Virus record (IMG/VR): IMGVR_UViG_2671180606_000004
Span: 1-11,722 of that record
Origin: a virus
Taxonomy: Duplodnaviria > Heunggongvirae > Uroviricota > Caudoviricetes
DNA length: 11,722 nucleotides
Reading direction: 5' to 3' (one strand)
The notes under the pieces are model-generated. The model made no database searches, was not told the DNA's origin, and worked only from the letters and a program-made list of their open reading frames with translations. A program made the translations under genes and the position numbers. Positions 1 through 11,722 of this stretch are shown in pieces; the first letter of the stretch is position 1, and each line of letters opens with the position of its first letter.

Positions 1-94
1 TTACCTGATTTTCCAGAGTGCTGATCCGGGTGTCTGCTGTTGCCAGATTTTGACGTAGCGTTGTGTTTTCCTCTTCCAGCGCGGTAAGCGGATT
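1..94 (-). other. ORF fragment in a different frame from V (…[31 protein letters not shown]…), open from the V junction and running off the window start; coiled-coil-like; probably part of a distal gene joined to V by deletion
   Basis: Minus-strand frame opens after a stop at 95-97 and has no stop before position 1; heptad-like, protein-like composition; lambda V homology ends at about 88. Identity unknown. Confidence 0.35.
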
Positions 95-420
95 TTATAG
101 GCACGGGTATCACCTTCATTAAACCACGCCAGCAGCGCCTGCTGCCCCTGCTCTCCGGGCATCCACGCCAGCGTGAAGCTGGTATCTCCGGCAGATTTCT
201 GCCCCTGCCCGGTCGCAGTCCAGTCTGCATCTTCATCATCGAGATAGCTGTCGTCATAGGACTCAGCGGTCAGTTCGCCGGGCGTCAGGTCTTTAACTTT
301 TGCCAGACGCGACCAGTCAACGTCTGAAAGCGGGTTCGCATAAGGGTCACCGCTCCCCTTATAAACCCACAGGGTGGTCCCGGCACCTTTCACCGGCATT
401 ACAGGATTTGGTACAGGCAT
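1..420 (-). pseudogene. V: Phage lambda major tail protein V, N-terminal ~111 aa only; C-terminal half replaced by unrelated sequence (junction about position 88), reading to a stop at 1-3
   Basis: Translation from ATG 420-418 ([36 protein letters not shown]…[11 protein letters not shown]) matches lambda gpV N-terminus as recalled; after AYKIR it diverges ([12 protein letters not shown]…). Lambda gpV is about 246 aa. The track ORF begins at an upstream alternative start (450). Confidence 0.85.
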
Positions 421-427
421 AGCGTCC

Positions 428-823
428 TCACATTTCATAGGTAATGACATAAGTCAGATCGGCTGAACTCCACAGGCCCGCATCATCGTCGCGCCGGTAG
501 TCATAGCCACTGGCCACCATACTGGTGATCAAATCTGACAGTGCCGGGATATCGCTCATCACCGGATAAATCCGGGACTCCATCCACGAATCCAGCTCTG
601 AATCCGGCACCTGAGCAGGCAGGAAAACTTCAATATGCAGCTCCGCCTGCCAGGTATCGCTGTCCAGCTCTTCGCCCGTGTATTCAGCGCCGGTGAGATA
701 AACGGCAATTGCCGGAAAATCTTCCTCATCAAAAACAGCGGGGCGACCATCAAAAAGCGTCGCCCCGGTGTCATGCTTCTCCAGTGCATCCAGTACGGCT
801 GCACGGAGTTCAGTATGTTTCAT
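428..823 (-). CDS. U: Tail terminator protein U (lambda gpU), 131 aa
   Basis: Full-length near-identity to lambda gpU as recalled ([22 protein letters not shown]…LTYVITYEM); ATGA stop-start overlap with Z as in lambda. Confidence 0.95.
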
Positions 824-1398
824 CGCTTTATTACCATTCTCAGTTGATGCTGCAGCGCATAGCCCAGCTCTTTCGGAAGACGTTCACGCCGTATCCGTTC
901 AATATTCTGTTTAAACGCCGTGGTCAGCGGCACCGCCATCGGGATTTTCACCACATCAATGGGGTAACGGTTTTTCCCGGCCACACGCTGCATGACATGC
1001 CAGCGGCCATTTTTCAGTTGCTGAATAAACGCGCCGGGAATACGACGGTTACCCACCACAAGCACGCTGCCGCCATCTTTCAGGGCTGAACGCTGCCCCT
1101 TTTTACGACGCCTGCGTCGGGACAGGACAACCCGCGCGTTACCCAGCTTGATTACGGGCAAATCCCCCCGGTTAACCTTGATTCTGGCCTGTGGATTTTT
1201 GACCGTGGCCCTTTTCAGCCTGGCCCTTTCCTTTACCAGTTTCCGGCGTACCTTTGTCTCACGGGCAACCTGTGCCACCGACTGCGATATCGCGGATGAA
1301 GCAACGCGGTTAATGGCCATTGCGGCGGCACCGGGCACCGCCGTTCTGCTGATACGGCTGAGGTTTTCAACGGCCTGCTCAAGACCTTTTATGGCCAT
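820..1398 (-). CDS. Z: Tail completion protein Z (lambda gpZ), 192 aa
   Basis: Full-length near-identity to lambda gpZ as recalled (MAIKGLEQAVENLSRIS…HQLRMVIKR); GGGGGA Shine-Dalgarno upstream of ATG. Confidence 0.95.
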   Translation of the reverse strand: MAIKGLEQAVENLSRISRTAVPGAAAMAINRVASSAISQSVAQVARETKVRRKLVKERARLKRATVKNPQARIKVNRGDLPVIKLGNARVVLSRRRRRKKGQRSALKDGGSVLVVGNRRIPGAFIQQLKNGRWHVMQRVAGKNRYPIDVVKIPMAVPLTTAFKQNIERIRRERLPKELGYALQHQLRMVIKR

Positions 1399-1409
1399 AC
1401 ATCCCCCTT

Positions 1410-1763
1410 TCAGCGGCGACGGTTAACGGCAGGCGGTACGCCCCGCCCAAGCCAGAGATGACAGCTTCCGCCATCATCCGGCGAAATCCGGTCTATCCAG
1501 AAGTTTTCCTCACCGATGCTCAGCGTGTCGCCGCGCCGCAGCTGCCGCACATCATCAGTCCGGACAAACAGGGACGGGCTGGAGCCTTCAACGCGCACGC
1601 CCTGTCCGGCATAGCTGATATTTTCAGGGTCATCAAAAACACCACGTATTACTGCGCCGGACTGCTCACCGGATGTAATGGTGGCTGACGTTCCCATGTA
1701 CCCGCGTATCGTTTCATCGGCGCGGGCAATGGCGGCATCGAACAGGTTATCGAAATCAGCCAC
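1410..1763 (-). CDS. FII: Head-tail joining protein FII (lambda gpFII), 117 aa, GTG start
   Basis: Near-identity to lambda gpFII as recalled (MADFDNLFDAAIARADETIRGYMG…GRGVPPAVNRRR); GTG start with GGGAGG Shine-Dalgarno, as in lambda. Confidence 0.95.
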   Translation of the reverse strand: MADFDNLFDAAIARADETIRGYMGTSATITSGEQSGAVIRGVFDDPENISYAGQGVRVEGSSPSLFVRTDDVRQLRRGDTLSIGEENFWIDRISPDDGGSCHLWLGRGVPPAVNRRR

Positions 1764-1774
1764 AGCGCCTCCCG

Positions 1775-2170
1775 TTATTGCATTCTGGCCTGGCCGCGCT
1801 CTGTCATTTCGGCTGCCACACCGGCAGAGACACGAAACGCCGTTCCCGGCAGCACAAATGCCACAGCCTCATCCCGCGTGGCGTGAAGTGCATCAGTATG
1901 CAGCGTCACCAGTGCCACAACCGTGACCAGAGCAGCCGTATCAGTCACGGTATCCGTCTGTGCTGATACCACCTCATTTTCATGTCCGGTCAGTGCATTT
2001 TCCGGGCTGACAGACGTGTCCTGACCGGCTGCGTCATCCGTGTCATCAAGCTCCTCTTCCAGCTCTGCCACACGGAGCGCCAGTTCTTCTTTCGTCCCCG
2101 TCAGGCTGACATCACGGTTCAGTTGCTCACCCAGCGACCGGAGACGGGCAATCAGTTCATCTTTCGTCAT
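1775..2170 (-). CDS. FI: Head DNA-packaging/stabilisation protein FI (lambda gpFI)
   Basis: From ATG 2170-2168 (GGAGGAG Shine-Dalgarno upstream) the translation MTKDELIARLRSLGEQLNRDVSLTGTKEELALRVAEL… matches lambda gpFI as recalled; the track ORF starts at an upstream GTG (2209). Confidence 0.9.
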   Translation of the reverse strand: MTKDELIARLRSLGEQLNRDVSLTGTKEELALRVAELEEELDDTDDAAGQDTSVSPENALTGHENEVVSAQTDTVTDTAALVTVVALVTLHTDALHATRDEAVAFVLPGTAFRVSAGVAAEMTERGQARMQ

Positions 2171-2211
2171 GAACTCCTCCACAGAGAGAAAATGGCCCCG
2201 AAGGGCCACGA

Positions 2212-2748
2212 TTACGCCAGTTGTACGGAAACGAACTCATCAGGGTCAGCCAGCAGCATCAGCGGTGCTGACTGAATCATGGTGAACTCACGCGCCGGAT
2301 CGCCGGTGGTCACCCAGTTTTTCGGGTAACGGGCAGAGGCGTTAATGCCTTCGCGCTGTGCGTCCGCATCCTGAATGCAGCCATAGGTGCGCAGACCGCG
2401 AGCCTGAGTGTTCCCCAGCACCATCGTGTTGTCCGGCAGGAAGTTCTTTTTGACGCCGTTTTCCACGTACTGTCCGGAATACACGACGATGGCCACATCG
2501 CCATACATTCCCTTACCCTGGCGACGCGCCTTACGCGTTAACCAGCCTTCTGCTTCCAGCCGTGCGATAGCCGTTCTGACGGTACTCATCCCCGCGCCAA
2601 TCTGGCGGGCAATGGTTTCAATTGATGGCCAGCACACACCTTCGTCATTACTGAAATCAGCCAGGCGGGCCATAATTGCCACGCTGGATAATTTCATGCC
2701 TGACGCAGCGCAACCATCCCATACATAGCCGGTTAATTTAGTGCTCAT
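2212..2748 (-). CDS. Chimeric ORF: N-terminal ~78 aa winged-helix/HTH domain (HTH_36-like, as in phage replication-initiator proteins) fused in frame to the C-terminal ~100 aa of lambda major capsid protein E (E-derived part about 2212..2511)
   Basis: Residues from about 81 (MYGDVAIVVYSGQYVENGVKKNFLPDNTMVLGNTQARGLRTYGCIQDADAQREGINASARYPKNWVTTGDPAREFTMIQSAPLMLLADPDEFVSVQLA) match the lambda gpE C-terminus as recalled. Residues 1-78 (…SSVAIMARLADFSNDEGVCWPSIETIARQIGAGMSTVRTAIARLEAEGWLTRKARRQ) resemble the N-terminal DNA-binding domain of phage replication initiators. Lambda gpE is 341 aa, so its N-terminal ~240 aa are missing. Confidence 0.8.
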   Translation of the reverse strand: MSTKLTGYVWDGCAASGMKLSSVAIMARLADFSNDEGVCWPSIETIARQIGAGMSTVRTAIARLEAEGWLTRKARRQGKGMYGDVAIVVYSGQYVENGVKKNFLPDNTMVLGNTQARGLRTYGCIQDADAQREGINASARYPKNWVTTGDPAREFTMIQSAPLMLLADPDEFVSVQLA

Positions 2749-2757
2749 GACCGACCT

Positions 2758-3096
2758 CTATTTCCCTGAATTTACGACGAAACTGTTCGAGCGGGCTGAA
2801 GCACTCATGCTCATAGCCCTCGCGGAGGTAGATAACCCGTTGTGTTTCCGGCTCCCAACGAATGACTCTGACGGGCACTCCGTAGTGATCTTTGAACCAG
2901 CGGTTAACTTGTCGCAAAGGACTGTCTCCTTCTGCCGGTTGAAATCACCCACAGCCCACTCTGCAAAGCTGTGGGTTACAATTTCCCTGTCACCTGGTAC
3001 ATTCACTGCATAGCAATATTCCACCTTCGCTTTTCCACCCGGTACAGGAAGCGCAATCAGTTGCGAGCGACGGTAGTGTGTTGTTAAACTGTTCAT
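2758..3096 (-). CDS. Hypothetical early-operon protein; possibly frame-disrupted (C-terminal part may continue in the -1 frame to a stop at 2738-2740)
   Basis: ATG at 3096 overlaps the stop of the upstream cII-like gene (ATGA coupling). The N-terminal 50 aa look protein-like; the annotated frame ends in low-complexity sequence ([16 protein letters not shown]), while the -1 frame from about 2944 reads a convincing peptide (…[61 protein letters not shown]) whose stop overlaps the ATG of the next gene. Confidence 0.45.
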
Positions 3097-3701
3097 GCGT
3101 TAGTTTCTCCACAGTCACGACACGCCACGGCGCCCGGAGCTGCACACTCGCGGGCGTCATTACTTTCTGAAATGCAAAAAATTTTGTAGACCAGTGCTGC
3201 ATGCTCCTGCAGCTTCGAAATTGAGAGGTAGAGCTCGTCATTAATTGCTGTCTTCTCATGCGGTTCCACTACACCGTCTTCGATTGCTGAACGAATCTGT
3301 TTTGAATAACTGCCGATCTGTTCAATGACTTCCAGCAGACGCTGGTTAATATCGGCGTTGTCCACATCCTCGACGTCAGGAAGAGACACAAAGACGCCAT
3401 TTGCAGACTGCGCCACAGCATCAGCAATGAAGTGAGTTCCACCAGCACGTTGCAAAATCATTGCCCATCCCAGCGGGAAAATCTGATCGCCATCGGCACG
3501 AAGGCGGTTAAATAATGCGTTCTCTGTTACATCCAGCCAGTCAGCAGCTTCAGCGTAACCCCCCGGCAACGCTGCGATAGTTTTTCTGACAGCTTTCACG
3601 TACCACTCAGGCTGTTTTTCTACTTTCCAGTGATGCTTACCCACGGTTAGCCTCATCGTTCTGTGGTTTCTGTTAATCGATTTATCCATTAGATTTTTCA
3701 T
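3093..3701 (-). CDS. Early regulatory protein in the cII position (CII/CP76-like or YdaT-like; family uncertain), about 202 aa
   Basis: ORF immediately downstream of the cro-like gene in the same operon. Start set at ATG 3701 (or 3689) rather than the track start 3758, which would overlap cro by 77 nt. Family assignment is by position and loose resemblance only. Confidence 0.55.
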
Positions 3702-3882
3702 AAAGCTCAGGTTTAAATGGCAACCGTCCGCAAGTTCTATATGCAGCTTCTGCTGCACGTCCTTTTGGAATTAACTGGCCCGGACGGTTTCGCCACTGAT
3801 AAACGGCTTCAGTTGTTATGCCGAAAAAAGCAGCAACTTTCTCAATACTGCCGAAGTAGCTTTCGATATCGTCAGTTGTCAT
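3682..3882 (-). CDS. Cro-like small HTH repressor (Cro/YdaS-type), 66 aa
   Basis: Small ORF divergent from the CI-like repressor; motif …[45 protein letters not shown] typical of Cro/YdaS-family proteins; GGAGGG Shine-Dalgarno upstream. Confidence 0.8.
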   Translation of the reverse strand: MTTDDIESYFGSIEKVAAFFGITTEAVYQWRNRPGQLIPKGRAAEAAYRTCGRLPFKPELYEKSNG

Positions 3883-3979
3883 ACGCCCTCCAAACTAAGT
3901 TTTATTAGATGCTAATTACAAATCTATCTTTGGTCAATAAAAACTAAGATTACTTAGTAATTAAAGAAATGGTGCTCCT
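3883..3979. promoter_or_regulatory. Divergent cI/cro intergenic control region: palindromic operator candidate ACTAAG-ATTA-CTTAGT (3943..3958), inverted repeat ATTAG-N3-CTAAT (3904..3916), two AACTAAG copies, candidate cro promoter on minus strand (-35 TTGACC 3932..3937, -10 TAGCAT 3909..3914)
   Basis: 97-bp AT-rich spacer between divergent repressor genes; perfect 6-4-6 palindrome; sigma70-like hexamers with 17-bp spacing read on the minus strand. Promoter assignment is by eye. Confidence 0.5.
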
Positions 3980-4606
3980 ATGGAAACGGTTGGTCAGCGT
4001 ATAAAAGCTCTGAGAAGAGTTACCAGAACGTCCCAGAAAGAATTGGGTAAATTTTGTGGAGTAAGCGACGTTGCTGTGGGGTACTGGGAGAAAGACATCA
4101 ATACCCCTGGTGGGGAGGCACTTTCGAAATTAGCGAAGTTCTTCAATACGTCAATAGATTACATTCTTTATGGTGCTGAGTTTGAAGGCAAACTCGTCAC
4201 AAACATGCGCAGAGTTCCTGTAATATCGTGGGTTCAGGCTGGGCAGTTTACTGAGTGCAGGGCAGCAGAAGTGTTTAGTGAAGTGGACAAGTGGGTAGAT
4301 ACATCATTAAAGATTGGTGATAACTCATTTGCATTAGAGGTTAAAGGTGACTCCATGACTAACCCTAATGGCCTCCCAACAATACCAGAAGGCGCAACAG
4401 TGATTGTAGATCCAGATGCAGAACCTCGTCATGGAAAAATAGTCATCGCTCGACTTGATGGAACAAACGAAGCTACAGTAAAAAAATTAGTCATCGATGG
4501 CCCTCAAAAGTTTTTAGTGCCATTAAATCCTCGGTATCCCAACATCCCTATCAATGGTAATTGCCTTATCATTGGTGTAGTCAAAGGAGTTCAATACGAA
4601 CTCTAA
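3980..4606 (+). CDS. CI-like prophage repressor: N-terminal XRE-type HTH plus C-terminal S24 (LexA/CI-type) autopeptidase domain, 208 aa
   Basis: HTH motif (QKELGKFCGVSDVAVGYWEKD…), catalytic Ser in GDSM and Lys in KKL with spacing typical of S24 peptidases; divergent from the cro-like gene. Confidence 0.9.
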   Translation: METVGQRIKALRRVTRTSQKELGKFCGVSDVAVGYWEKDINTPGGEALSKLAKFFNTSIDYILYGAEFEGKLVTNMRRVPVISWVQAGQFTECRAAEVFSEVDKWVDTSLKIGDNSFALEVKGDSMTNPNGLPTIPEGATVIVDPDAEPRHGKIVIARLDGTNEATVKKLVIDGPQKFLVPLNPRYPNIPINGNCLIIGVVKGVQYEL

Positions 4607-4690
4607 GACCTCTCTTCTCTAACTAAGGCACCGAACTAAGAAAAGTTTGGTGTTTTCTCTTGCCATAATAACTAAGTTAAGTTAGATTTT
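4607..4690 (+). promoter_or_regulatory. Candidate pL-like promoter/operator region downstream of the repressor gene: three direct AACTAAG repeats (4621, 4634, 4670) and possible -35 TTGCCA (4660..4665) / -10 TAGATT (4683..4688)
   Basis: Same heptamer as in the cI/cro spacer; hexamers with 17-bp spacing on the plus strand, pointing away from cI. By-eye call. Confidence 0.3.
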
Positions 4691-4812
4691 ATGTCAAAGA
4701 TAACGAACAGGCAGGACGCCCACGAAGTAGCCGCCTGGGGCATATGAAGTCCAGGATGATTCGTTGAGTCATGTTGTGCCACTAGGCACTCATGTTAAAG
4801 CAGGTGTATGAA

Positions 4813-5088
4813 ATGAAAGTCCAGATTTTAAACAATAACTGTGAAGTCGTTTGGTCATACGACATAGCCGCCCATGTAGATCAGAGCGGCGATAGCTGGG
4901 CCAATGGGAAACATCAGATTATGGCTGGAGTTGTATTCTCTTTACGCCGTGCTTTAGAACAGGCTGAAGTCTTTCCATCAGACCCTGAATGGAAATGGCC
5001 TTTTTCTATTTGTCCAAATTCGGAGAGTACATTTCAGAAAATTGGTCAGAAAGTCGCACTCGAAGAGCATCAGCCAACTGTTTCCTGA
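4813..5088 (+). CDS. Hypothetical protein, 91 aa (first ORF downstream of the repressor, N position of a lambdoid map; no N-like Arg-rich motif)
   Basis: ORF with AGGTG Shine-Dalgarno 7 nt upstream of ATG 4813 (track start 4792 lacks one). Its 3' end is overlapped by an equally plausible antisense frame (5006..5263, minus), so the call is uncertain. Confidence 0.4.
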   Translation: MKVQILNNNCEVVWSYDIAAHVDQSGDSWANGKHQIMAGVVFSLRRALEQAEVFPSDPEWKWPFSICPNSESTFQKIGQKVALEEHQPTVS

Positions 5089-5504
5089 TTTTTTCAGGTA
5101 ACTCGTCGGCATCGCAGAAACAACAACGCTCGATCATGTTGAAAGCCGATTCGTAGAACTGTTTTTGCTGAGTGTCGCTGAGACAGGAAAAGAGCGACGT
5201 TACGATGATTTTATTAATTGCATTATCAAGTTCTTTTTCATCAAAAGTTATTTGATTTTCCTTTTATGTATACGGGCTTAAAAGGATACCACCGAGCCTG
5301 AAGTGGTGAAAAGACAGGCACATAACAGCTAAGTATTTTCAACCAGAGAGAATCCTTAGCGTTGTGGTGAATGCGGCTCAGCGCACGCGGGTTAAGGTTG
5401 AGGCTGACAGTCGACCTTCTGTGGATACCCACCCGCCTGGTGTGCAACCTTCGCCAGGCACCGGGAGGCACCCGGCACCACAACTTTATGCTGTGTGTAG
5501 TCCT

Positions 5505-5552
5505 GGCGGTACCAGTTTGTACACTTGCTTCCGGCTGGTACCGCTCTTTTTA
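5505..5552 (+). terminator. Rho-independent terminator candidate: perfect 10-bp stem GCGGTACCAG/CTGGTACCGC, 19-nt loop, followed by TCTTTTTA
   Basis: Base pairing checked position by position (5506-5515 with 5535-5544); U-tract immediately 3' on the plus strand. Lies in an ORF-poor spacer upstream of the yfdP-like gene. Confidence 0.5.
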
Positions 5553-5688
5553 CAAAACAGAGAAGAGCATCACCGGACGACGGGCTCATAACCCAATCCA
5601 TCCGGGCGGCTGCCACCGCAGGTGTTCTTCTCTGTTTTGTGGAGAAACTAATCGGCCTTGCAGGGTCGATATGATGAGGAGCAACAAA

Positions 5689-6051
5689 ATGGCTAGCGAA
5701 CGCAGTACTGATGTGCAGGCATTTATCGGGGAGCTGGACGGCGGCGTATTTGAAACAAAAATCGGCGCAGTTCTCAGTGAAGTCGCTTCCGGTGTGATGA
5801 ACACGAAAACCAAAGGTAAGGTCTCACTCAACCTGGAAATCGAACCATTTGATGAGAACCGTGTGAAAATCAAACACAAACTCTCATATGTTCGCCCGAC
5901 TAACCGCGGGAAAATTTCCGAAGAAGACACCACCGAAACGCCGATGTATGTCAATCGCGGTGGTCGCCTGACTATTCTGCAGGAAGACCAGGGACAATTA
6001 CTGACTCTTGCCGGTGAACCTGACGGAAAACTCCGCGCAGCAGGTCATTAA
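5689..6051 (+). CDS. yfdP: YfdP-like hypothetical prophage protein, 120 aa
   Basis: ATG 5689 with GAGGAG Shine-Dalgarno 8 nt upstream; size and position match the yfdP-yfdQ-yfdR-yfdS block of CPS-53 as recalled. The track ORF start at 5371 is an upstream read-through of non-coding-looking sequence. Confidence 0.75.
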   Translation: MASERSTDVQAFIGELDGGVFETKIGAVLSEVASGVMNTKTKGKVSLNLEIEPFDENRVKIKHKLSYVRPTNRGKISEEDTTETPMYVNRGGRLTILQEDQGQLLTLAGEPDGKLRAAGH

Positions 6052-6116
6052 TATCGTTCTTAATTAACTGATTATTTATTTCATCACTGAATATCTTTAT
6101 ATAGTGAGGACTTATT

Positions 6117-6941
6117 ATGTCTCAGAACTTAGACGCAACCGCAATTAATCAAATCCATGCCCTTATTTCTGCTCAGGGTGTTAATGAAATTATCAGTAAG
6201 ATTGGTGCCGATGCTGTGGCATTGCCTGAGAATTTCCGCATTCATGATCTGGAAAAATTTAATTTAAATCGCTTCCGTTTCCGTGGTGCGCTTTCCACTG
6301 CCAGCATCGATGACTTTACCCGTTATTCTAAAGATCTTGCAGATGAAGGCACCCGCTGCTTTATCGATGCTGATAATATGCGTGCCGTCAGTGTGCTTAA
6401 CCTGGGTACTATTGATGAACCAGGTCACGCAGATAACACCGCCACTCTCAAACTGAAAAAGACAGCACCGTTCTCTGCTCTGTTGTCTGTTAATGGCGAG
6501 CGTAACTCCCAGAAATCACTGGCAGAATGGATTGAAGACTGGGCTGACTACCTTGTGGGCTTTGATGCTAATGGTGACACCATTCAGGCAACAAAAGCGG
6601 CTGCGGCGGTCCGTAAAATCACGATTGAAGCAAACCAGACCGCTGATTTTGAAGATAATGACTTCAGCGGCAAACGCTCCCTGATGGAGTCTGTCGAAGC
6701 GAAGACCAAAGACATTATGCCAGTGGCATTTGAATTTAAATGCATTCCGTTTGAAGGTCTGAAAGAACGTCCGTTTAAATTACGCCTCAGCATTATCACT
6801 GGCGATCGTCCGGTACTGGTTCTGCGCATTATTCAGCTGGAGGCGGTGCAGGAAGAAATGGCTAACGAATTTCGTGATCTGCTTGTTGAGAAATTCAAGG
6901 ACAGCAAAGTAGAAACCTTTATTGGTACTTTCACCGCCTGA
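6117..6941 (+). CDS. yfdQ: YfdQ-like hypothetical prophage protein (DUF2303-type), 274 aa
   Basis: Well-formed ORF with GAGGA Shine-Dalgarno; length and neighbourhood match K-12 YfdQ as recalled. Confidence 0.8.
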
Positions 6942-6953
6942 TTTCATTACTGC

Positions 6954-6981
6954 AAATGCCCCTGCGGGGGCATTTATGGAA
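6954..6981 (+). terminator. Hairpin AAATGCCCC-TGCG-GGGGCATTT (perfect 9-bp stem, 4-nt loop) downstream of the yfdQ-like gene; possible terminator or attenuator
   Basis: Perfect inverted repeat 6954-6962 / 6967-6975 with GC-rich core; only a short U-tract follows. Confidence 0.4.
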
Positions 6982-7068
6982 ACGTAATTGACTCAATAAT
7001 CGCCGGGTGGTGGGGGCTTCCTTTTACCAGAATTCAGCGCGGTGCAGCGCATATACGTGGAGAACAAA

Positions 7069-7605
7069 ATGTCATTTATTAAAACTTTTTCCGGGAAGCA
7101 TTTTTATTATGACAGGATAAATAAAGACGACATCGTTATTAACGATATCGCGGTTTCCCTTTCAAATATCTGCCGCTTTGCAGGACACCTTTCACACTTC
7201 TACAGCGTCGCCCAACATGCGGTGCTTTGCAGCATGCTGGTACCGCAGGAATTTGCTTTTGAAGCATTAATGCATGATGCAACAGAAGCGTATTGCCAGG
7301 ACATCCCCGCACCACTGAAACGCCTCCTTCCTGACTATAAACGGATGGAAGAAAAAATAGACGCCGTAATCCGTGAGAAATACGGGTTACCTCAGGCTAT
7401 GAGCACGCCCGTGAAATATGCCGATCTCATCATGCTGGCAACCGAACGCCGCGATCTCGGGCTTGATGATGGCTCTTTCTGGCCTGTACTGGAAGGTATC
7501 CCGGCAACAGAGATGTTCAACGTGATTCCACTGGCACCGGGCCATGCCTATGGGATGTTTATGGAACGCTTCAACGAGTTATCGGAGTTACACAAATACG
7601 CATAA
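7069..7605 (+). CDS. yfdR: HD-domain phosphohydrolase (YfdR-like, 5'-deoxynucleotidase-type), 178 aa
   Basis: H…HD…D motif (AQHAVLCS…LMHDATEAYCQDIP…); start at ATG 7069 (MSFIKTFSGKHFYYD…) with GGAG Shine-Dalgarno, rather than track start 7042; size matches K-12 YfdR as recalled. Confidence 0.85.
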   Translation: MSFIKTFSGKHFYYDRINKDDIVINDIAVSLSNICRFAGHLSHFYSVAQHAVLCSMLVPQEFAFEALMHDATEAYCQDIPAPLKRLLPDYKRMEEKIDAVIREKYGLPQAMSTPVKYADLIMLATERRDLGLDDGSFWPVLEGIPATEMFNVIPLAPGHAYGMFMERFNELSELHKYA

Positions 7606-7616
7606 ATGTTTTCGAA

Positions 7617-7957
7617 ATGGAAGGGTTTCTTCGCGGGAAATGTGTACCGCGAGATCTGAAAGTGAATGAAACAGATGCTGAATACCTGGTACGTAAATTC
7701 GATGCGCTTGAAGCTAAATGTGCAGCACTGGAAAAAAAGTAATACCAGTGTCAGCTGAACTGCCGCCAGCAAATGAAAGTGTTCTGTTATTTGATGCTAA
7801 TGGAGAAGGCTGGCTGATTGGCTGGCGTTCTCTCTGGTACACATGGGGGCAAAAAGAAACCGGAGAATGGCAGTGGACATTCCAGGTCGGGGACCTTGAA
7901 AACGTCAATATCACTCACTGGGCAGTAATGCCGAAAGCACCGGAGACTAAGAAATGA
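7617..7957 (+). pseudogene. yfdS: YfdS-like gene split into two frames at an A7 tract: 7617..7742 (41 aa, stop TAA) and the -1 frame continuing to 7957; frameshift mutation, homopolymer sequencing error or programmed -1 frameshift
   Basis: Upstream frame MEGFLRGKCVPRDLKVNETDAEYLVRKFDALEAKCAALEKK ends at TAA directly after the heptamer A AAA AAG (7733..7739); the -1 frame continues VIPVSAELPPANESVLLFDANGEGWLIGW… to 7957. Combined length about 114 aa (K-12 YfdS is 120 aa as recalled). Confidence 0.6.
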
Positions 7958-8169
7958 GCGTGATAAAAACTCATACAGGAATTGTTATCACGCAAGACGG
8001 TGACAAGCGGATGAAATTACATTCTACTGAAATGTCCTGGGTTGCCGGACGTTGTGAATCCTACGACAAAAAGACTGGTTACCATTGGGGGGCGCCAAAC
8101 ATGCGTCGCCGTCTGCTCCTGGACAGAATCAGGCCAATTAAACAGGTAGCAACCAGAGAGCAAAATTAA
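7954..8169 (+). CDS. Small hypothetical prophage protein, 71 aa (yfdT position)
   Basis: ATGA stop-start overlap with the preceding gene; GGAG Shine-Dalgarno 8 nt upstream. Confidence 0.6.
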   Translation: MSVIKTHTGIVITQDGDKRMKLHSTEMSWVAGRCESYDKKTGYHWGAPNMRRRLLLDRIRPIKQVATREQN

Positions 8170-8231
8170 TTATCAGGACTGGAATTTGATATTACTGCCC
8201 GTGTGCAGCGGGCTAAGTGGAGAAAAGACTC

Positions 8232-8456
8232 ATGAGCAACCGCTTCCTGACTGATGAAGAACTGATAGAGGCGACAGGGTCTTCCCAAAAGTCACTACAG
8301 AAAGAAGTCTTAACGCAGAATGGCATTTTTTTTATTGAACGCAGGGACGGTTCTGTAAAAACGACCTGGTTTCATATAAATCATCCCATTCATCGTTTGG
8401 CTCCACCAGCAGGTTTCTCGCCCACTCCGGGTATGAACTTTGATGCTATAGAGTGA
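8232..8456 (+). CDS. Putative excisionase / recombination directionality factor (small protein directly upstream of int), 74 aa
   Basis: ATG 8232 with GGAG Shine-Dalgarno (track start 8217 is GTG); stop 5 nt before int. Function inferred from position, size and N-terminal motif MSNRFLTDEELIEATG…; not similar to lambda Xis. Confidence 0.55.
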   Translation: MSNRFLTDEELIEATGSSQKSLQKEVLTQNGIFFIERRDGSVKTTWFHINHPIHRLAPPAGFSPTPGMNFDAIE

Positions 8457-8460
8457 AATT

Positions 8461-9447
8461 ATGGGTCGAAAACGAGCACCTGGTAATGAATGGATGCCGA
8501 AGGGGGTATATTTCCGCCCTTCTGGCTACTACTGGAAACCAGGGGGAACAACAGAAAAAATTGCATCAGCCAATGCAACAAAAGCAGATGTCTGGGTTGC
8601 TTTTGAAAAAATTGTAGAGGGGAGAAAAAGACGAATAACTTTTGCCCAGCTTTGGAAGAAATTTCTCAATAGTGCCGATTATGCAGATTTGGCACCACGA
8701 ACTCAAAAGGATTATCTAGCCCACGAAAAATATCTCCTTGCTGTTTTTGGCGAAGCGGAAGCAAAGACTATTAGACCAGAACATGTAAGGCGGTATATGG
8801 ATGCCAGAGGAAAGAAAAGTCGTGTCCAAGCTAACCATGAGCACAGTTCAATGTCTCGGGTATTTCGTTGGGGATACCAACGAGGATATGTTCCTGGAAA
8901 TCCTTGCGTTGGAGTAGATAAATTCCCTAAACCAAAGCGTGATCGCTACATCACAGATGAGGAATACATGGCGATTTATGAACACGCCAGTGAGCCAGTT
9001 AAAGCCGCAATGGAAATAGCTTATTTATGTGCAGCGAGGGTATCCGATGTCTTGAAAATGGACTGGCCGCAGATAATGGATAAAGGAATTTTTATTCAGC
9101 AGGGCAAGACGGGAGTTAAGCAGATCAAGGCGTGGACTGATCGCCTGCGCGCGGCAGTTGATATTTGCAGATCGTGGGGGGAAACAGGGTCAGTAATTAA
9201 AACCATGTATGGAGAGCGTTACTCTTACAAGGGGTTTAATGAGGCATGGCGAAAAGCAAGAACAGCGGCAGCCAACTATCTTGGAAGACCTCTGGATTGT
9301 ACATTTCATGATCTGAAAGCTAAAGGAATTTCTGACTATGAAGGATCATCAAAAGAAAAGCAGCTATTTAGTGGGCACAAAACTGAATCACAAGTCATGG
9401 TTTATGATAGAAAAATACGCATCACACCAACATTAAATAAAAATTAG
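8461..9447 (+). CDS. int: Tyrosine site-specific integrase, lambda Int family, 328 aa
   Basis: Aligns with lambda Int as recalled: N-terminal MGRKR…GYYW arm-binding region, catalytic-domain landmarks AARVSDV (Arg-I), QGKTGVK (Lys), TFHDLK (box II His), GHK, VMVYDR (Tyr nucleophile). Confidence 0.95.
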   Translation: MGRKRAPGNEWMPKGVYFRPSGYYWKPGGTTEKIASANATKADVWVAFEKIVEGRKRRITFAQLWKKFLNSADYADLAPRTQKDYLAHEKYLLAVFGEAEAKTIRPEHVRRYMDARGKKSRVQANHEHSSMSRVFRWGYQRGYVPGNPCVGVDKFPKPKRDRYITDEEYMAIYEHASEPVKAAMEIAYLCAARVSDVLKMDWPQIMDKGIFIQQGKTGVKQIKAWTDRLRAAVDICRSWGETGSVIKTMYGERYSYKGFNEAWRKARTAAANYLGRPLDCTFHDLKAKGISDYEGSSKEKQLFSGHKTESQVMVYDRKIRITPTLNKN

Positions 9448-9451
9448 ACTC

Positions 9452-9473
9452 TAAGTGCGCGTTAGCGCACTTA
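9452..9473. terminator. Perfect inverted repeat TAAGTGCGC-GTTA-GCGCACTTA between convergent int and the AT-rich operon; candidate bidirectional terminator
   Basis: 9-bp perfect stem with 4-nt loop in the 23-bp gap between convergent stops; the stop codon of the 265-aa gene lies in the 3' arm; T-rich flank on the plus side. Confidence 0.4.
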
Positions 9474-10268
9474 TTCAAATAGTTCAGGGAATACTAATTG
9501 TAGTGAATTCATGAATTTATCAATATCTTCAGGAGGTTCTTGCTCACGAAACCACTTGTCACACACTTCATTGACATAAATTTTCGCTTGTCCGACCTTC
9601 AAGGATTTATTCTCTCGTCCACTTTTATCAGCAGGGTTATAGTGCAAACTTAAAATAAAATTTCTAACCTTTACTTCTTTTCCCTTTTTTGAAACTATAT
9701 TGTAGTCAAAATAACATTCATCACCGGTAAACGCATTTGCTATGGGGCTCTTTTTAAAATGATATCGGCACTCATCAAGCCTATCAGAAATAGCCTTATA
9801 TTTTTCAAAATCACCAGAGCTAAGGTAGCTGAACCAATTTTTAAAGTAACTTAATGAATCAAGTTTCTGATGGTAAATAAAGAAACCTGCATGTTTCTCA
9901 TCAGAAATATATCTTGTTACTAACTGTAACATGCCTTCAAAGACACCATTATACGAATTCCCTCTTTTTGCTTCAGCGAGCCAAGTAAAGCTCTGATCAC
10001 GATCCTGAACTGTAATATCGACGGAACCATTAGATTTTGTTTGTTCAGATGCGTTGTACCCAACACCTTTGAGAAATAAAACCAGTAAATTAGTGATCTT
10101 ATCTTCATCATCTGAATAATATTTATCCGCAGTCTTCTCAATATGCTTAATTGCATTATTTATATCGGCATATAGACTTTGTACAAACACATCCTCATCG
10201 AATGGCTTCAAGTTTACCAGCGCGGCTAATTCGGCAGGTGTTATATTTTGAAGAAAATTATTTGACAT
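9471..10268 (-). CDS. Hypothetical protein, 265 aa, third gene of the AT-rich operon; possible PD-(D/E)xK nuclease-like core (…GSVDITVQD…FTWLAEAKRG…)
   Basis: Long ORF in a visibly AT-rich segment; ATG overlaps the stop of the upstream gene by 11 nt. The D…E-x-K spacing is the only motif recognised and is an inference. Confidence 0.7.
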   Translation of the reverse strand: MSNNFLQNITPAELAALVNLKPFDEDVFVQSLYADINNAIKHIEKTADKYYSDDEDKITNLLVLFLKGVGYNASEQTKSNGSVDITVQDRDQSFTWLAEAKRGNSYNGVFEGMLQLVTRYISDEKHAGFFIYHQKLDSLSYFKNWFSYLSSGDFEKYKAISDRLDECRYHFKKSPIANAFTGDECYFDYNIVSKKGKEVKVRNFILSLHYNPADKSGRENKSLKVGQAKIYVNEVCDKWFREQEPPEDIDKFMNSLQLVFPELFE

Positions 10269-10689
10269 TTAATATACAGTAAAAAGAAATGTTATTAACA
10301 TCGAAATCATCTATTTCGCGCCCAGACAATAAACTGATCGGAGAAATATCACAAATCAGAGCATTATAGTAGCATTCTGCTGAAATAGGGATTTCTTCAC
10401 CATCAAAATCATAATAGCAATAAGTTATATTAAATAATTTAGAATGTGCACCACAAAAATAACGGACTAACTTTAGCAAATCCGAGTCCGATTCACAGCC
10501 TGCCGCTTGCCTTAATACATTAATCGGGTAATAATTTTTATCATAATTATTTTGAATGAAATCCAAAACATTATTGAATAGAAAGATATCTTCTTCAGGA
10601 AAGATATCTTTCATTTCATCCAATAATATCCTTTGTTCAGACAAAAGCATCATTATGACCTTGATTCTATCATTTTCGTGAGATGACAT
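10258..10689 (-). CDS. Hypothetical protein, about 143 aa, middle gene of the AT-rich operon
   Basis: ORF overlapping both neighbours (about 20 nt upstream, 11 nt downstream), suggesting translational coupling; start taken at ATG 10689 (track start 10695 is TTG). No family recognised. Confidence 0.65.
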   Translation of the reverse strand: MSSHENDRIKVIMMLLSEQRILLDEMKDIFPEEDIFLFNNVLDFIQNNYDKNYYPINVLRQAAGCESDSDLLKLVRYFCGAHSKLFNITYCYYDFDGEEIPISAECYYNALICDISPISLLSGREIDDFDVNNISFYCILNVK

Positions 10690-11722
10690 TTTCAATTAAA
10701 CCATTTAATGAGATTGTATCTTCAGGAAAATCAACATAAAATTCGCCACAAAAATTATCATCCAACCAAGATTTCTTATTTGGATCTAGACCCAATTCTG
10801 TAAAGTCACCATTATTTCTGTAAAATCTTACGGCTACAGCACGTGGTGTATAAATATCATTTCTTTTCTTATTAGTAATCTCGACATCTCGAGCTTCATA
10901 TGTCGGATCTTTGCGGCCAATGACATTAGCATCACAACCTGTATTAGAACCAACATAAATTATCTGAACTGCTTTCCCGAACGATCTATCAGTAATAATG
11001 CTATTGATCACATTATAAAAATTCAATTGTTTGAAATGAATAGTATTATTAGTACTGATGAGCATATCAAAAAATTTATTACGCACCGATGCAAGCGCTT
11101 TTGCTGTCTCCCGTTTCCCTAAATTTTTTGGAAGACGATACTCGATCCTATTTTTATTATGGGGAACAAATACTGTTATAAATTGTTGCTGTGGGGTATA
11201 CGATAGTCCTAAACCGCGACTTCCCTTAATCTTAACACTATAAACATATGAGAAAATAAAAGCAAAGCCATCGCCAGTATCAATTAATTTAGTCAGATAA
11301 AGACCTTTGATATTGTTCCCAAGTGAATTACCATCATATAACTTTCTTGGATAAGAATTTTCATACCTTGAATCAGTTACACTTGTACTAAAAACATGTT
11401 GGATCACACTTTGGAAATTTGGGTCTTGTGTTTCGTCAATAGAATAATAGTGACTACCAGAGATTATTATTCTATCGATCATTTTCTCAAGTGAATTTAA
11501 TGTAGCATTAGGAAATGCAGCTGTTGGATTCTGTATAGATGCCTCGATTGCCTTCAAAACCGCATCCATTCCACCTTTAACAGGTGGAAATCCATACACA
11601 GTTGCTATCTGAGAAATAAATGAATATAGATTGGTCTGCTCAAGCGCAGTAATCAAATCAGATAATACTTGTTGACTATTGTTGGCAACAACAGGCGTAG
11701 CAAATGCGCTAGATGAATTCAT
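10670..11722 (-). CDS. Hypothetical protein, at least 350 aa, first gene of the AT-rich operon; the ATG coincides with the last 3 nt of the window, so the true start and promoter may lie beyond the window
   Basis: Uninterrupted 350-codon frame in an AT-rich segment; no Walker or other catalytic motif recognised by eye. Confidence 0.7.
   Translation of the reverse strand: MNSSSAFATPVVANNSQQVLSDLITALEQTNLYSFISQIATVYGFPPVKGGMDAVLKAIEASIQNPTAAFPNATLNSLEKMIDRIIISGSHYYSIDETQDPNFQSVIQHVFSTSVTDSRYENSYPRKLYDGNSLGNNIKGLYLTKLIDTGDGFAFIFSYVYSVKIKGSRGLGLSYTPQQQFITVFVPHNKNRIEYRLPKNLGKRETAKALASVRNKFFDMLISTNNTIHFKQLNFYNVINSIITDRSFGKAVQIIYVGSNTGCDANVIGRKDPTYEARDVEITNKKRNDIYTPRAVAVRFYRNNGDFTELGLDPNKKSWLDDNFCGEFYVDFPEDTISLNGLIENVISRK

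What the first reader, a model, noticed from the sequence alone, without database searches (positions are those of the whole stretch)
9471..11722. AT-rich three-gene operon of unknown function next to the integrase: candidate undescribed accessory or defence system
Three tightly overlapping genes (350, about 143 and 265 aa) on the minus strand, convergent on int and separated from it by a 23-bp perfect hairpin. The segment is visibly much more AT-rich than the lambdoid backbone, which suggests separate horizontal acquisition. None of the three proteins matches a family I can name; the last one has a D…E-x-K arrangement compatible with a PD-(D/E)xK nuclease fold. Overlapping starts and stops suggest coupled expression of a multi-component system. 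Integrase-proximal positions in prophages are common cargo sites for anti-phage systems.
Basis: partly seen in the sequence, partly recalled or inferred. Interest (0 to 1): 0.85.

Follow-up and report, generated by a model that had tools for sequence, protein, structure and literature searches.

The report
Undescribed three-gene prophage nuclease cassette
Next to the integrase of an E. coli prophage sits a rare, conserved three-gene cassette (a DNA-binding-like protein, a small acidic protein and a restriction-enzyme-like nuclease) that travels between unrelated temperate phages at the spots where they carry anti-phage genes, so it is a strong, untested candidate for a new phage-exclusion system.

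Summary
Three packed minus-strand genes lie at 9471-11722: A (350 aa), B (131-145 aa) and C (265 aa). They converge on int, are separated from it by a 22-nt perfect hairpin, and have 33.6% GC against 45.5% in the flanks.

No protein matches Pfam, NCBIfam, PADLOC or any PDB sequence. C matches only PHROG 9664, of unknown function.

- **A:** an orphan family with 28 representatives among 1.84 billion proteins. Its model is closest to RdgC, the fold class reported for lambda RexA.
- **B:** always acidic, fold unknown.

The A-B-C order is kept down to 16-24% identity. It occurs only in cargo loci of temperate phages: int-att slots of lambdoid prophages, the P2 gpA-gpQ hotspot, between Q and stx1 in Stx1a phages, a 14.8-kb PM2-like Vibrio phage, and beside a filamentous prophage.

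A sister prophage carries DarTG in the same slot. The cassette is unrelated to the validated "hp+hp+hp" P2 system.

It is most likely a new prophage-encoded exclusion system with a nuclease effector. Function is inferred, not shown.

The parts
10670..11722 (-). Gene A, 350 aa. Orphan family with an RdgC-like predicted fold. Proposed DNA-binding or sensor subunit.
   Evidence: - ORF.
- No Pfam, NCBIfam, PADLOC or PDB sequence match.
- Only 28 representatives with E<=1e-3 among 1.84 billion proteins.
- AlphaFold2 model: pLDDT 74, pTM 0.75, good for residues 14-250.
- Foldseek against BFVD: three of the four best matches are phage RdgC or recombination-associated proteins (the other is uncharacterised), probability 0.99-1.0.
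- pI 7-9.2 in eight cassettes.
10258..10689 (-). Gene B, 143 aa by the RefSeq start. Alternatives are TTG at 10695 (145 aa) and ATG at 10653 (131 aa). Small acidic protein of unknown fold. Proposed adaptor or inhibitor.
   Evidence: - ORF.
- No significant family match.
- Seven clusters found by word-based search.
- Homologues recognisable in distant cassettes by hhalign: L011 probability 99.6, L002 BLASTP E 4e-25.
- pI 4.2-5.3 and net charge -4 to -15 in all eight cassettes.
9471..10268 (-). Gene C, 265 aa. PD-(D/E)xK (restriction-endonuclease-like) nuclease. Proposed effector.
   Evidence: - Model: pLDDT 81, pTM 0.68.
- PHROG 9664, E 1e-44.
- Weak Mrr_cat hits in 3 of 13 family members, best E 0.005.
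- The L002 homologue hits PADLOC candidate PDC-S54, E 2e-5.
9966..10106 (-). Codons of the predicted catalytic core of C: E55 (10104-10106), D84 (10017-10019), E99 (9972-9974), K101 (9966-9968).
   Evidence: These residues are invariant in 16 close homologues, in 13 homologues down to 28% identity, and in eight cassettes from different phage types. In the model, E55 begins helix 55-69, D84 lies next to strand 85-88, and E99-x-K101 lies in strand 95-102.
9452..9473 (.). Perfect 9-bp stem and 4-nt loop hairpin between the convergent stop codons of int and C. It overlaps the stop codon of C. Probable bidirectional transcript-end structure.
   Evidence: free energy -14 to -15 kcal/mol, z -3.8. The stem is conserved and the loop differs in L007. 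It is not called as an intrinsic terminator because it has no T-run.
8217..9447 (+). Integration module that travels with the cassette here: DUF4224 gene (8217-8456) and tyrosine integrase (8461-9447). Sister prophages stop matching the window at about 8225.
   Evidence: -.
- int at >=99% identity is found only in the 14 complete E. coli genomes that also carry the cassette at >=99% identity.
- Sister prophages match window 2513-8225 and then diverge.

Best explanation
The segment is a lysogeny-carried accessory ('moron') operon that encodes an undescribed three-component phage-exclusion (anti-phage defence) system.

- **Effector (C):** a PD-(D/E)xK nuclease of the restriction-endonuclease type.
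- **Sensor or targeting subunit (A):** a neutral-to-basic protein with an RdgC-like fold. This is the fold class that lambda RexA, the sensor of the RexAB exclusion system, is reported to share. A is proposed to bind DNA.
- **Regulator (B):** a strongly acidic small protein, translated just before C. It is proposed to act as adaptor or inhibitor and to keep the nuclease off until infection.

The system has no methyltransferase and no NTPase. Self-protection therefore has to come from gating of the nuclease, not from host DNA modification.

My working model is as follows. A engages invading or replicating phage DNA, for example free ends or replication and recombination intermediates. This relieves B-mediated inhibition. 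C then cuts DNA, either the phage's alone or phage and host together (abortive infection).

**Shown here:** the gene structure; the nuclease fold and its invariant catalytic motif; the RdgC-like model of A; the acidity of B; the strict A-B-C synteny; the exclusive location in cargo loci of temperate phages.

**Inferred:** defence itself; DNA binding by A; the role of B; the trigger; the target of C.
For: **1. Position**
- The cassette lies inside the prophage, 136 bp from the 65-bp att repeat at tRNA-Ser.
- A sister prophage has DarT/DarG in the same slot.

**2. Mobility with conserved synteny, always in cargo loci of temperate phages**

| Location | Source | A-B-C sizes (aa) | Identity / call |
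|---|---|---|---|
| P2-like prophage, between portal and gpA | Enterobacter | 358/145/277 | A 32% |
| P2-like clone, between gpA and portal | Klebsiella KP12 | 368/142/215 | |
| P2-like prophage, between CI and int | assembly GCA_003025595.1 | 349/134/278 | A 24% |
| Other lambdoid prophages, convergent on int | Logan contig and E. coli QRB17 | 359/140/274 and 361/146/265 | |
| After tail-fibre genes | Pantoea | 351/149/266 | |
| Between Q and stx1A in Stx1a phages | E. coli | 350/130/221 | |
| Next to int of a 14.8-kb Vinavirales phage | Vibrio | 339/140/276 | |
| Beside a Zot/Rep filamentous prophage | assembly GCA_033760715.1 | 355/138/281 | |

- The gpA-gpQ locus is an experimentally supported anti-phage hotspot (PMC9122126).
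- Small Vibrio prophages have a defence-enriched accessory locus (PMC11630473).

**3. Effector**
- The nuclease fold and motif of C are supported.
- One homologue matches the nuclease region of PADLOC candidate PDC-S54.

**4. Sensor**
- RdgC is the top match of the A model in two independent searches.
- RdgC, CHL4 and IML3 are the same structural relatives reported for RexA (PMC11077077).

**5. Shared properties**
- All eight cassettes are AT-rich relative to their flanks (0.33-0.38 against 0.45-0.50).
- All share the same charge pattern across A, B and C.

**6. Patchy distribution, as expected of accessory cargo**
- 16 of 5426 complete E. coli genomes carry this type.
- 23 of 5426 carry the Stx1 type.
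Against: - No experiment exists, and guilt by position is not proof. The same hotspots also carry partition systems, toxins and virulence genes (PMC9122126).
- No component matches any model in PADLOC 2.0.0.
- A shows no sequence-profile similarity to RdgC or RexA.
- B has no structural model, so its role is a guess from its charge and gene order.
- Nothing indicates the trigger or whether the target is DNA or RNA. Some PD-(D/E)xK enzymes cut RNA.
- The newest DefenseFinder and PADLOC models and the paywalled literature could not be searched.
Confidence: 0.6

Rival explanations
1. It is a tripartite toxin-antitoxin or addiction module whose main role is to stabilise the prophage. C is a DNase toxin, B its acidic antitoxin, and A a regulator or chaperone. 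Any anti-phage effect would be secondary.
For: - A small acidic protein is encoded immediately upstream of, and overlapping, a nuclease gene.
- The cassette is compact, AT-rich and mobile, and sits at element ends.
- The equivalent slot in a sister prophage holds a toxin-antitoxin-type system, DarTG.
- Small Vibrio prophages often carry toxin-antitoxin pairs in their variable locus (PMC11630473).
Against: - The largest gene, A, is as strictly conserved as B and C across eight cassettes. That is unusual for an accessory regulator.
- No HTH or known antitoxin domain is detectable in A or B.
- DarTG and many prophage toxin-antitoxin systems are themselves defence systems, so this rival overlaps the main explanation.
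Confidence: 0.2
2. It is a solitary restriction system that depends on DNA modification or DNA structure (Type IV-like). C cuts foreign DNA carrying a modification, A and B provide recognition, and no gating or abortive infection is involved.
For: - The closest folds to C are classical restriction enzymes and McrC.
- Members show weak Mrr_cat hits, and Mrr is a Type IV enzyme.
- There is no adjacent methyltransferase in any of the loci examined.
Against: - No recognisable modified-base reader (SRA, YTH, DUF3578-type, winged helix) and no NTPase motor was detected.
- Several host prophages themselves encode DNA methyltransferases. This would risk self-restriction if methylated DNA were the target.
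- The Mrr_cat hits are far below the Pfam threshold.
Confidence: 0.12
3. It is not a host-protective function but a phage-benefit module. Examples are a recombination or replication accessory (an RdgC-like RecA modulator plus a nuclease), or a counter-defence or host-takeover function used in the lytic cycle.
For: - RdgC homologues are common in phage early operons. An example is rdgC in the early region of the L007 prophage, and BFVD holds phage RdgC proteins.
- Nucleases are frequent in phage recombination modules.
Against: - The cassette lies outside the early, late and immunity operons. It is transcribed towards int from its own upstream region next to att.
- It is absent from nearly identical sister prophages and sits in variable loci of at least four unrelated temperate-phage types. 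A core life-cycle function would not be this dispensable or this portable.
- A has no sequence relationship to RdgC.
Confidence: 0.08

Closest known systems
Lambda RexAB phage-exclusion system and Rex-like systems of actinophages
   Same: - Both are prophage-encoded and sit in a lysogeny-associated accessory position.
- RexA is a DNA-binding sensor whose reported structural relatives are RdgC, IML3 and CHL4 (PMC11077077).
   Different: - A has no sequence-profile similarity to RexA (hhalign probability 0.2).
- The partner is not a 4-TM membrane protein like RexB. It is an acidic soluble protein plus a PD-(D/E)xK nuclease.
- The cassette has three genes rather than two.
RdgC (recombination-associated DNA-binding ring protein, PF04381)
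   Different: - No Pfam RdgC hit in any of 21 A-family members.
- hhalign against a phage RdgC gives probability 0.1.
- TM scores are only about 0.3.
- RdgC acts alone and is not linked to a nuclease.
Nuclease-effector defence systems with a PD-(D/E)xK subunit, such as Hachiman HamA, McrBC McrC, CBASS NucC/Cap4 and Shedu
   Different: - There is no helicase, GTPase, cyclase or DUF4263 partner.
- There is no PADLOC match.
- The closest folds are type II restriction enzymes, not these effectors.
Rst_3HP ('hp + hp + hp'), the three-gene system without predicted domains from the P2 hotspot, validated against P1 (Rousset et al. 2022)
   Same: It is also a three-gene cassette of hypothetical proteins in the P2 gpA-gpQ hotspot (PMC9122126).
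   Different: - It is unrelated. Profile HMMs of A, B and C score about 0 bits on its three proteins, and hhalign probability is below 1%.
- The sizes differ: 333/359/227 aa.
DarTG in the same int-att slot of a sister prophage
   Same: It occupies the same position and orientation, convergent on int and just inside att, in a prophage 98.8% identical over the early region.
   Different: The proteins are unrelated: an ADP-ribosyltransferase toxin and a NADAR antitoxin, in two genes.

Membership tests
PD-(D/E)xK nuclease superfamily (protein C) | Restriction-endonuclease-like alpha/beta core fold | tested here: met
PD-(D/E)xK nuclease superfamily (protein C) | Conserved acidic residue, then D, then (D/E)-x-K, on the helix and the two central strands | tested here: met
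   E55, D84 and E99-A-K101 are invariant in all alignments, including eight divergent cassettes. Their positions fit helix 55-69 and strands 85-88 and 95-102.
PD-(D/E)xK nuclease superfamily (protein C) | Match to a curated sequence model of the superfamily | tested here: inconclusive
   The window protein has no Pfam hit. Three of 13 family members hit Mrr_cat (PF04471) weakly, best E 0.005, below threshold.
PD-(D/E)xK nuclease superfamily (protein C) | Metal-dependent nuclease activity | not testable with these tools
   This needs purified protein.
RdgC family (protein A) | Match to the PF04381 sequence model or profile similarity to RdgC | tested here: not met
   There is no Pfam hit in 21 members. 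hhalign of the A profile against a phage RdgC gives probability 0.1.
RdgC family (protein A) | RdgC-like three-dimensional fold | tested here: inconclusive
RdgC family (protein A) | Ring-shaped dimer that binds DNA non-specifically | not testable with these tools
   No multimer prediction or biochemistry was available.
Lambda RexAB-type exclusion system | RexA homologue by sequence | tested here: not met
   hhalign of the A profile against lambda RexA: probability 0.2, E 0.37.
Lambda RexAB-type exclusion system | RexB-like multi-pass membrane partner | tested here: not met
   B is acidic (pI 4.2-5.3) and shows no similarity to RexB. C is a nuclease.
Rst_3HP (hp+hp+hp) of Rousset et al. 2022 | Sequence homology to its three proteins | tested here: not met
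   hmmsearch scores are about 0 bits and hhalign probability is below 1% for all nine pairings.
Any system or candidate in PADLOC-DB 2.0.0 | HMM match of the component proteins | tested here: not met
   There are zero hits at E<=1 for the window proteins. Of nine proteins from two distant loci (the three cassette proteins and the adjacent ORFs of each), only one C homologue hits the single-gene candidate PDC-S54, at E 2e-5 over the nuclease core.
Type II restriction-modification system | Cognate DNA methyltransferase encoded beside the endonuclease | tested here: not met
   No methyltransferase lies next to the cassette in any of the loci inspected.
Type II toxin-antitoxin module | Small protein encoded upstream of, and coupled to, a toxic enzyme | tested here: met
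   B precedes C with an 11-nt overlap, and B is acidic. This is an architectural feature only.
Type II toxin-antitoxin module | Toxicity of C and its neutralisation by B | not testable with these tools
   This needs expression experiments.

The most novel reading that the evidence does not exclude
A-B-C is a new class of prophage exclusion system. An RdgC/RexA-fold DNA sensor is wired, through an acidic adaptor, to a restriction-like nuclease instead of to a membrane channel. If so, the classical Rex sensor fold would be a reusable immune sensor module. The cassette is exchanged between tailed phages (lambdoid and P2-like), a tailless PM2-like phage and probably filamentous prophages, that is, across viral realms.
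Probability: 0.35. Interest if true: 0.8.

Novelty: new variant of a known kind. Interest (0 to 1): 0.68.

Why it matters
- **A clean candidate.** If it is confirmed as an immune system, its three protein families are absent from every library searched here. That makes it a clean addition to the catalogue of prophage-borne defences.
- **A link to Rex.** It would tie the long-enigmatic Rex sensor fold (RdgC/RexA) to a nuclease effector. That would give a tractable soluble system for asking what this fold senses during infection.
- **Spread across phage types.** The cassette occurs in lambdoid, P2-like and PM2-like temperate phages and beside a filamentous prophage. This is a concrete case of cargo exchange across very different viruses.
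- **Pathogen relevance.** A distant version lies between Q and stx1A in Stx1a-converting phages of pathogenic E. coli. This bears on phage-phage competition in Shiga-toxin strains.
- **Easy to test.** The cassette is small (2.25 kb) and the catalytic residues to mutate are clear.

Tried and rejected
**Family and sequence searches that found nothing**
- Pfam, NCBIfam and PADLOC gave nothing for A, B or C. Scans of 21 A homologues and 13 C homologues gave nothing significant either.
- PDB sequence searches with single proteins and with profiles found nothing.

**Known systems compared and rejected**
- A against a phage RdgC, A against lambda RexA and B against RexB showed no sequence relation. 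Membership of those families is rejected and only fold-level resemblance is kept.
- The validated hp+hp+hp system was rejected.
- None of the other P2 or P4 systems tested by Rousset et al. matches by size or description.
- KELShedu, a dsDNA-binding protein plus a nuclease, was rejected. Its nuclease is a DUF4263 protein of 38.6 kDa and its partner is a 12.6-kDa protein.

**Literature and accession searches**
- The RefSeq accession numbers occur in no searchable paper. The six RefSeq accessions tried occur in none of the DefensePredictor supplement files held as text.

**Ideas tested on the sequence**
- Zinc binding by B was rejected. Its four cysteines are invariant only among enterobacterial members and are replaced in distant homologues.
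- The hairpin as a canonical intrinsic terminator is not supported, because it has no T-run.

**Searches that could not be run**
- The search for related loci with divergent A alignments failed for lack of a conserved stretch.
- The afdb50 library was unavailable.

**Null result**
- A megablast of the cassette against phage records found nothing. tblastn was needed to find the phage copies.
Full report
**1. The observation**

The window ends with three minus-strand ORFs:
- A lies at 10670-11722 (350 aa).
- B lies at 10258-10695 (145 aa from a TTG). RefSeq aa from the ATG at 10689. Many homologues start at the Met at 10653 (131 aa), which has an AAGG 7 nt upstream.
- C lies at 9471-10268 (265 aa).

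B and C overlap by 11 nt. A and B overlap by 20 nt or are 16 nt apart, depending on the start chosen for B. The ATG of A is the very last codon of the window, so the promoter region is not in the window.

The three genes converge on a tyrosine integrase at 8461-9447 (Phage_integrase, E 6e-10).

Between the two stop codons lies a perfect hairpin, TAAGTGCGC-GTTA-GCGCACTTA (9452-9473).
- Its free energy is -14 to -15 kcal/mol, with z about -3.8, and none of 200 shuffles folds as well.
- In a 79%-identical version of the locus the stem is identical and the loop differs.
- It lacks a T-run and is not called as a canonical intrinsic terminator.

GC is 0.30-0.35 throughout 9400-11600 against 0.44-0.61 elsewhere. 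The cassette is 0.336 and the flanks 0.455.

**2. Where it sits**

- **Frequency.** The segment is found at 99-100% identity in 14 of 5426 complete E. coli genomes, and at 79% in two more. It always lies next to an integrase and is always annotated as three hypothetical proteins.
- **Inside the prophage.** In E. coli F3 it lies between int and tRNA-Ser (next to mtfA). A 65-bp exact direct repeat that overlaps the 3' part of the tRNA recurs 48.9 kb away, beyond the tail-fibre genes. The repeat bounds a lambdoid prophage, and gene A starts 136 bp inside the right repeat. The cassette is therefore prophage cargo, not a chromosomal locus.
- **Module boundary.** The integrase at >=99% identity occurs only in the 14 genomes that also carry the cassette at >=99% identity. 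Sister prophages that are 98.8% identical over window 2513-8225 diverge at about 8225. They carry a different integration module.
- **Same slot, known system.** In one of those sister prophages (ETEC1730), the equivalent slot, downstream of and convergent on int and just inside the element end, holds DarT and its NADAR antitoxin. I know DarTG from the literature as an anti-phage system. I did not test that here.

**3. The three proteins**

None matches Pfam, NCBIfam or PADLOC-DB 2.0.0, or any PDB sequence. The only significant family hit is C to PHROG 9664, annotated 'unknown function'.

*Protein C*
- AlphaFold2 on 16 homologues gives pLDDT 81.
- E55, D84, E99-A-K101 and Q115 are invariant in close homologues and in eight cassettes from different phage types. 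They fall on the helix and strands expected for the motif.
- Three family members give weak Mrr_cat hits (best E 0.005).
- One homologue hits the nuclease region of PADLOC candidate PDC-S54 (E 2e-5).

*Protein A*
- A is an orphan. A profile search of 1.84 billion representatives found only 28 proteins, and none of 21 members has a Pfam hit.
- Its model has pLDDT 74 and pTM 0.75. It is good for residues 14-250 and poor beyond.
- An independent Foldseek search of predicted viral structures puts phage RdgC or 'recombination-associated' proteins in three of the top four places, the other being uncharacterised. Probability is 0.99-1.0 but TM is only about 0.3.
- RdgC, IML3 and CHL4 are the structural relatives reported for lambda RexA, the DNA-binding component of the RexAB exclusion system (PMC11077077).
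- At sequence-profile level A is related neither to RdgC nor to RexA.

*Protein B*
- It has no relatives outside the cassette.
- It is acidic in every cassette: pI 4.2-5.3, net charge -4 to -15.
- It is not RexB-like.
- Its cysteines are not conserved in distant members, so it is not an obvious zinc protein.

**4. Distribution and synteny**

The A-B-C order, the sizes (about 340-370 / 130-150 / 210-280 aa) and the tight packing persist as identity falls to 16-32% for A. Every occurrence is in an accessory locus of a temperate phage.

| Location | Source | A-B-C sizes (aa) |
|---|---|---|
| P2-like prophages, between portal and gpA | Enterobacter hormaechei | 358/145/277 |
| P2-like clone, same locus | Klebsiella KP12 | 368/142/215 |
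| P2-like prophage, between CI and int | assembly GCA_003025595.1 | 349/134/278 |
| Other lambdoid prophages, convergent on int | Logan contig and E. coli QRB17 | 359/140/274 and 361/146/265 |
| Behind tail-fibre genes | Pantoea sp. At-9b | 351/149/266 |
| Between the Q antiterminator and stx1A of Stx1a-converting phages | E. coli, 23 of 5426 complete genomes | 350/130/221 |
| Next to int of a 14.8-kb PM2-like (Vinavirales) temperate phage | Vibrio cyclitrophicus | 339/140/276 |
| Beside a Zot/Rep filamentous prophage | assembly GCA_033760715.1 | 355/138/281 |
| Unannotated ORFs of matching size | Moraxella phage Mcat13 | 352/153/210 |

- All eight cassettes compared are AT-rich relative to their flanks.
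- Rousset et al. 2022 showed that the P2 gpA-gpQ locus is a hotspot containing anti-phage systems (PMC9122126).
- Steensen et al. 2024 described a defence-enriched accessory locus in tailless and filamentous Vibrio prophages (PMC11630473).

**5. How it most likely works**

*Shown:* a restriction-type nuclease with an intact catalytic motif; a co-conserved larger protein with an RdgC-like model; a co-conserved acidic small protein encoded just before the nuclease; no methyltransferase and no NTPase; exclusive residence in phage cargo loci.

*Inferred:*
- The operon is expressed from the lysogen and excludes other phages.
- A binds DNA and acts as sensor or targeting subunit.
- B holds the nuclease, or A's DNA-binding surface, in check.
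- Infection relieves this inhibition, and C then cuts DNA.

I put 0.6 on 'anti-phage or exclusion system with C as nuclease effector', and much less on the specific roles of A and B.

*Rivals:*
- A tripartite toxin-antitoxin or addiction module (0.2). This overlaps with defence.
- A Type IV-like solitary restriction system (0.12).
- A phage-benefit recombination or counter-defence module (0.08). This is disfavoured because nearly identical sister prophages lack the cassette, and because it sits outside the early and late operons.

**6. Comparison with what is known**

- **Not RexAB:** A has no sequence relation to RexA, and there is no membrane partner.
- **Not an RdgC family member:** the sequence model is not matched.
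- **Not in PADLOC 2.0.0**.
- **Not the validated 'hp + hp + hp' three-gene system from the P2 hotspot:** all pairings score about 0 bits.
- **Not any other system tested in that study**.
- **Not KELShedu**.
- The RefSeq accessions appear in no searchable paper. The six accessions tried appear in none of the DefensePredictor supplement files held as text.

It works like the broad class of 'sensor plus gated PD-(D/E)xK nuclease' defences and shares a sensor fold class with Rex. By every test available here it belongs to no described family.

*Limits of this comparison:*
- The PADLOC copy dates from 2023.
- Current DefenseFinder models and subscription-only literature could not be searched.
- B has no structural model.
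- The model of A is of medium confidence.

**7. Verdict**

The finding is real and its interpretation is supported. It is a rare, portable three-gene cassette with a nuclease effector. It is very probably a new prophage-borne exclusion system, a new variant of a known kind. It is readily testable by cloning 2.4 kb and mutating four residues.

Noticed in passing
window 1-2748 (junction at about 2513): Window 1-2512 (tail and head genes) is not contiguous with 2513 onwards in any of 5426 complete E. coli genomes. Every listed match starts at 2513. ORF 2212-2748 looks like a fusion of an HTH replication-protein N-terminus with a stretch of another protein (possibly capsid; not checked). The prophage in the window therefore seems to have lost the region from the head genes to the replication genes (lysis, Q, terminase, portal). 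It is probably defective.
   Followed up: partly
L019 14302-15618 (E. coli ETEC1730, NZ_CP122832.1): A sister prophage, 98.8% identical over window 2513-8225, carries DarT plus a NADAR antitoxin in the same int-att slot. Its integrase is interrupted by an IS3 element.
   Followed up: yes
L017 3454-5561 (Stx1a-converting phage Stx1_499, LC567825.1): A distant version of the cassette (350/130/221 aa) lies between the Q antiterminator gene and stx1A, on the opposite strand. It is present in 23 of 5426 complete E. coli genomes. Whether it affects stx expression or phage competition is unknown.
   Followed up: partly
NZ_CP158503.1 1184349-1187548 (E. coli E-ge-1; hit H6): In one genome the cassette match is split into two pieces by an IS1B element. 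This suggests insertional inactivation of the operon in that strain.
   Followed up: no
L018 2324-5753 (E. coli F3): At the other end of the same prophage, between the left att repeat and the tail-fibre genes, lie two large hypothetical proteins (567 and 574 aa) and an IS4 remnant. This is another possible cargo locus.
   Followed up: no
L001 15898-23658 (E. coli F3): Just beyond mtfA and tRNA-Asn lies a second integrase-bounded island. It carries a type III restriction-modification system and a 462-aa hypothetical protein, so the cassette borders a wider variable and defence region.
   Followed up: no
L002 10472-11143; L008 9343-10008: Some versions of the cassette have extra downstream genes without family matches. 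In the Enterobacter P2-like prophages there are two small ORFs (102 and 119 aa). In E. coli QRB17 there is a 221-aa ORF between C and int. Whether they belong to the system is unknown.
   Followed up: no
protein P0120 (2267 aa; no locus fetched): The A-family profile matches six separate stretches of one 2267-aa protein, through the N-terminal helical region of A (profile positions 44-97). It may be a repeat protein that shares that helical module.
   Followed up: no
L021 1955-4082 (Moraxella phage Mcat13, KR093637.1): Three overlapping ORFs of 352, 153 and 210 aa lie in a stretch with no annotated genes. The third is 30% identical to C. This is a probable unannotated member of the same cassette family outside Enterobacterales and Vibrio.
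   Followed up: partly
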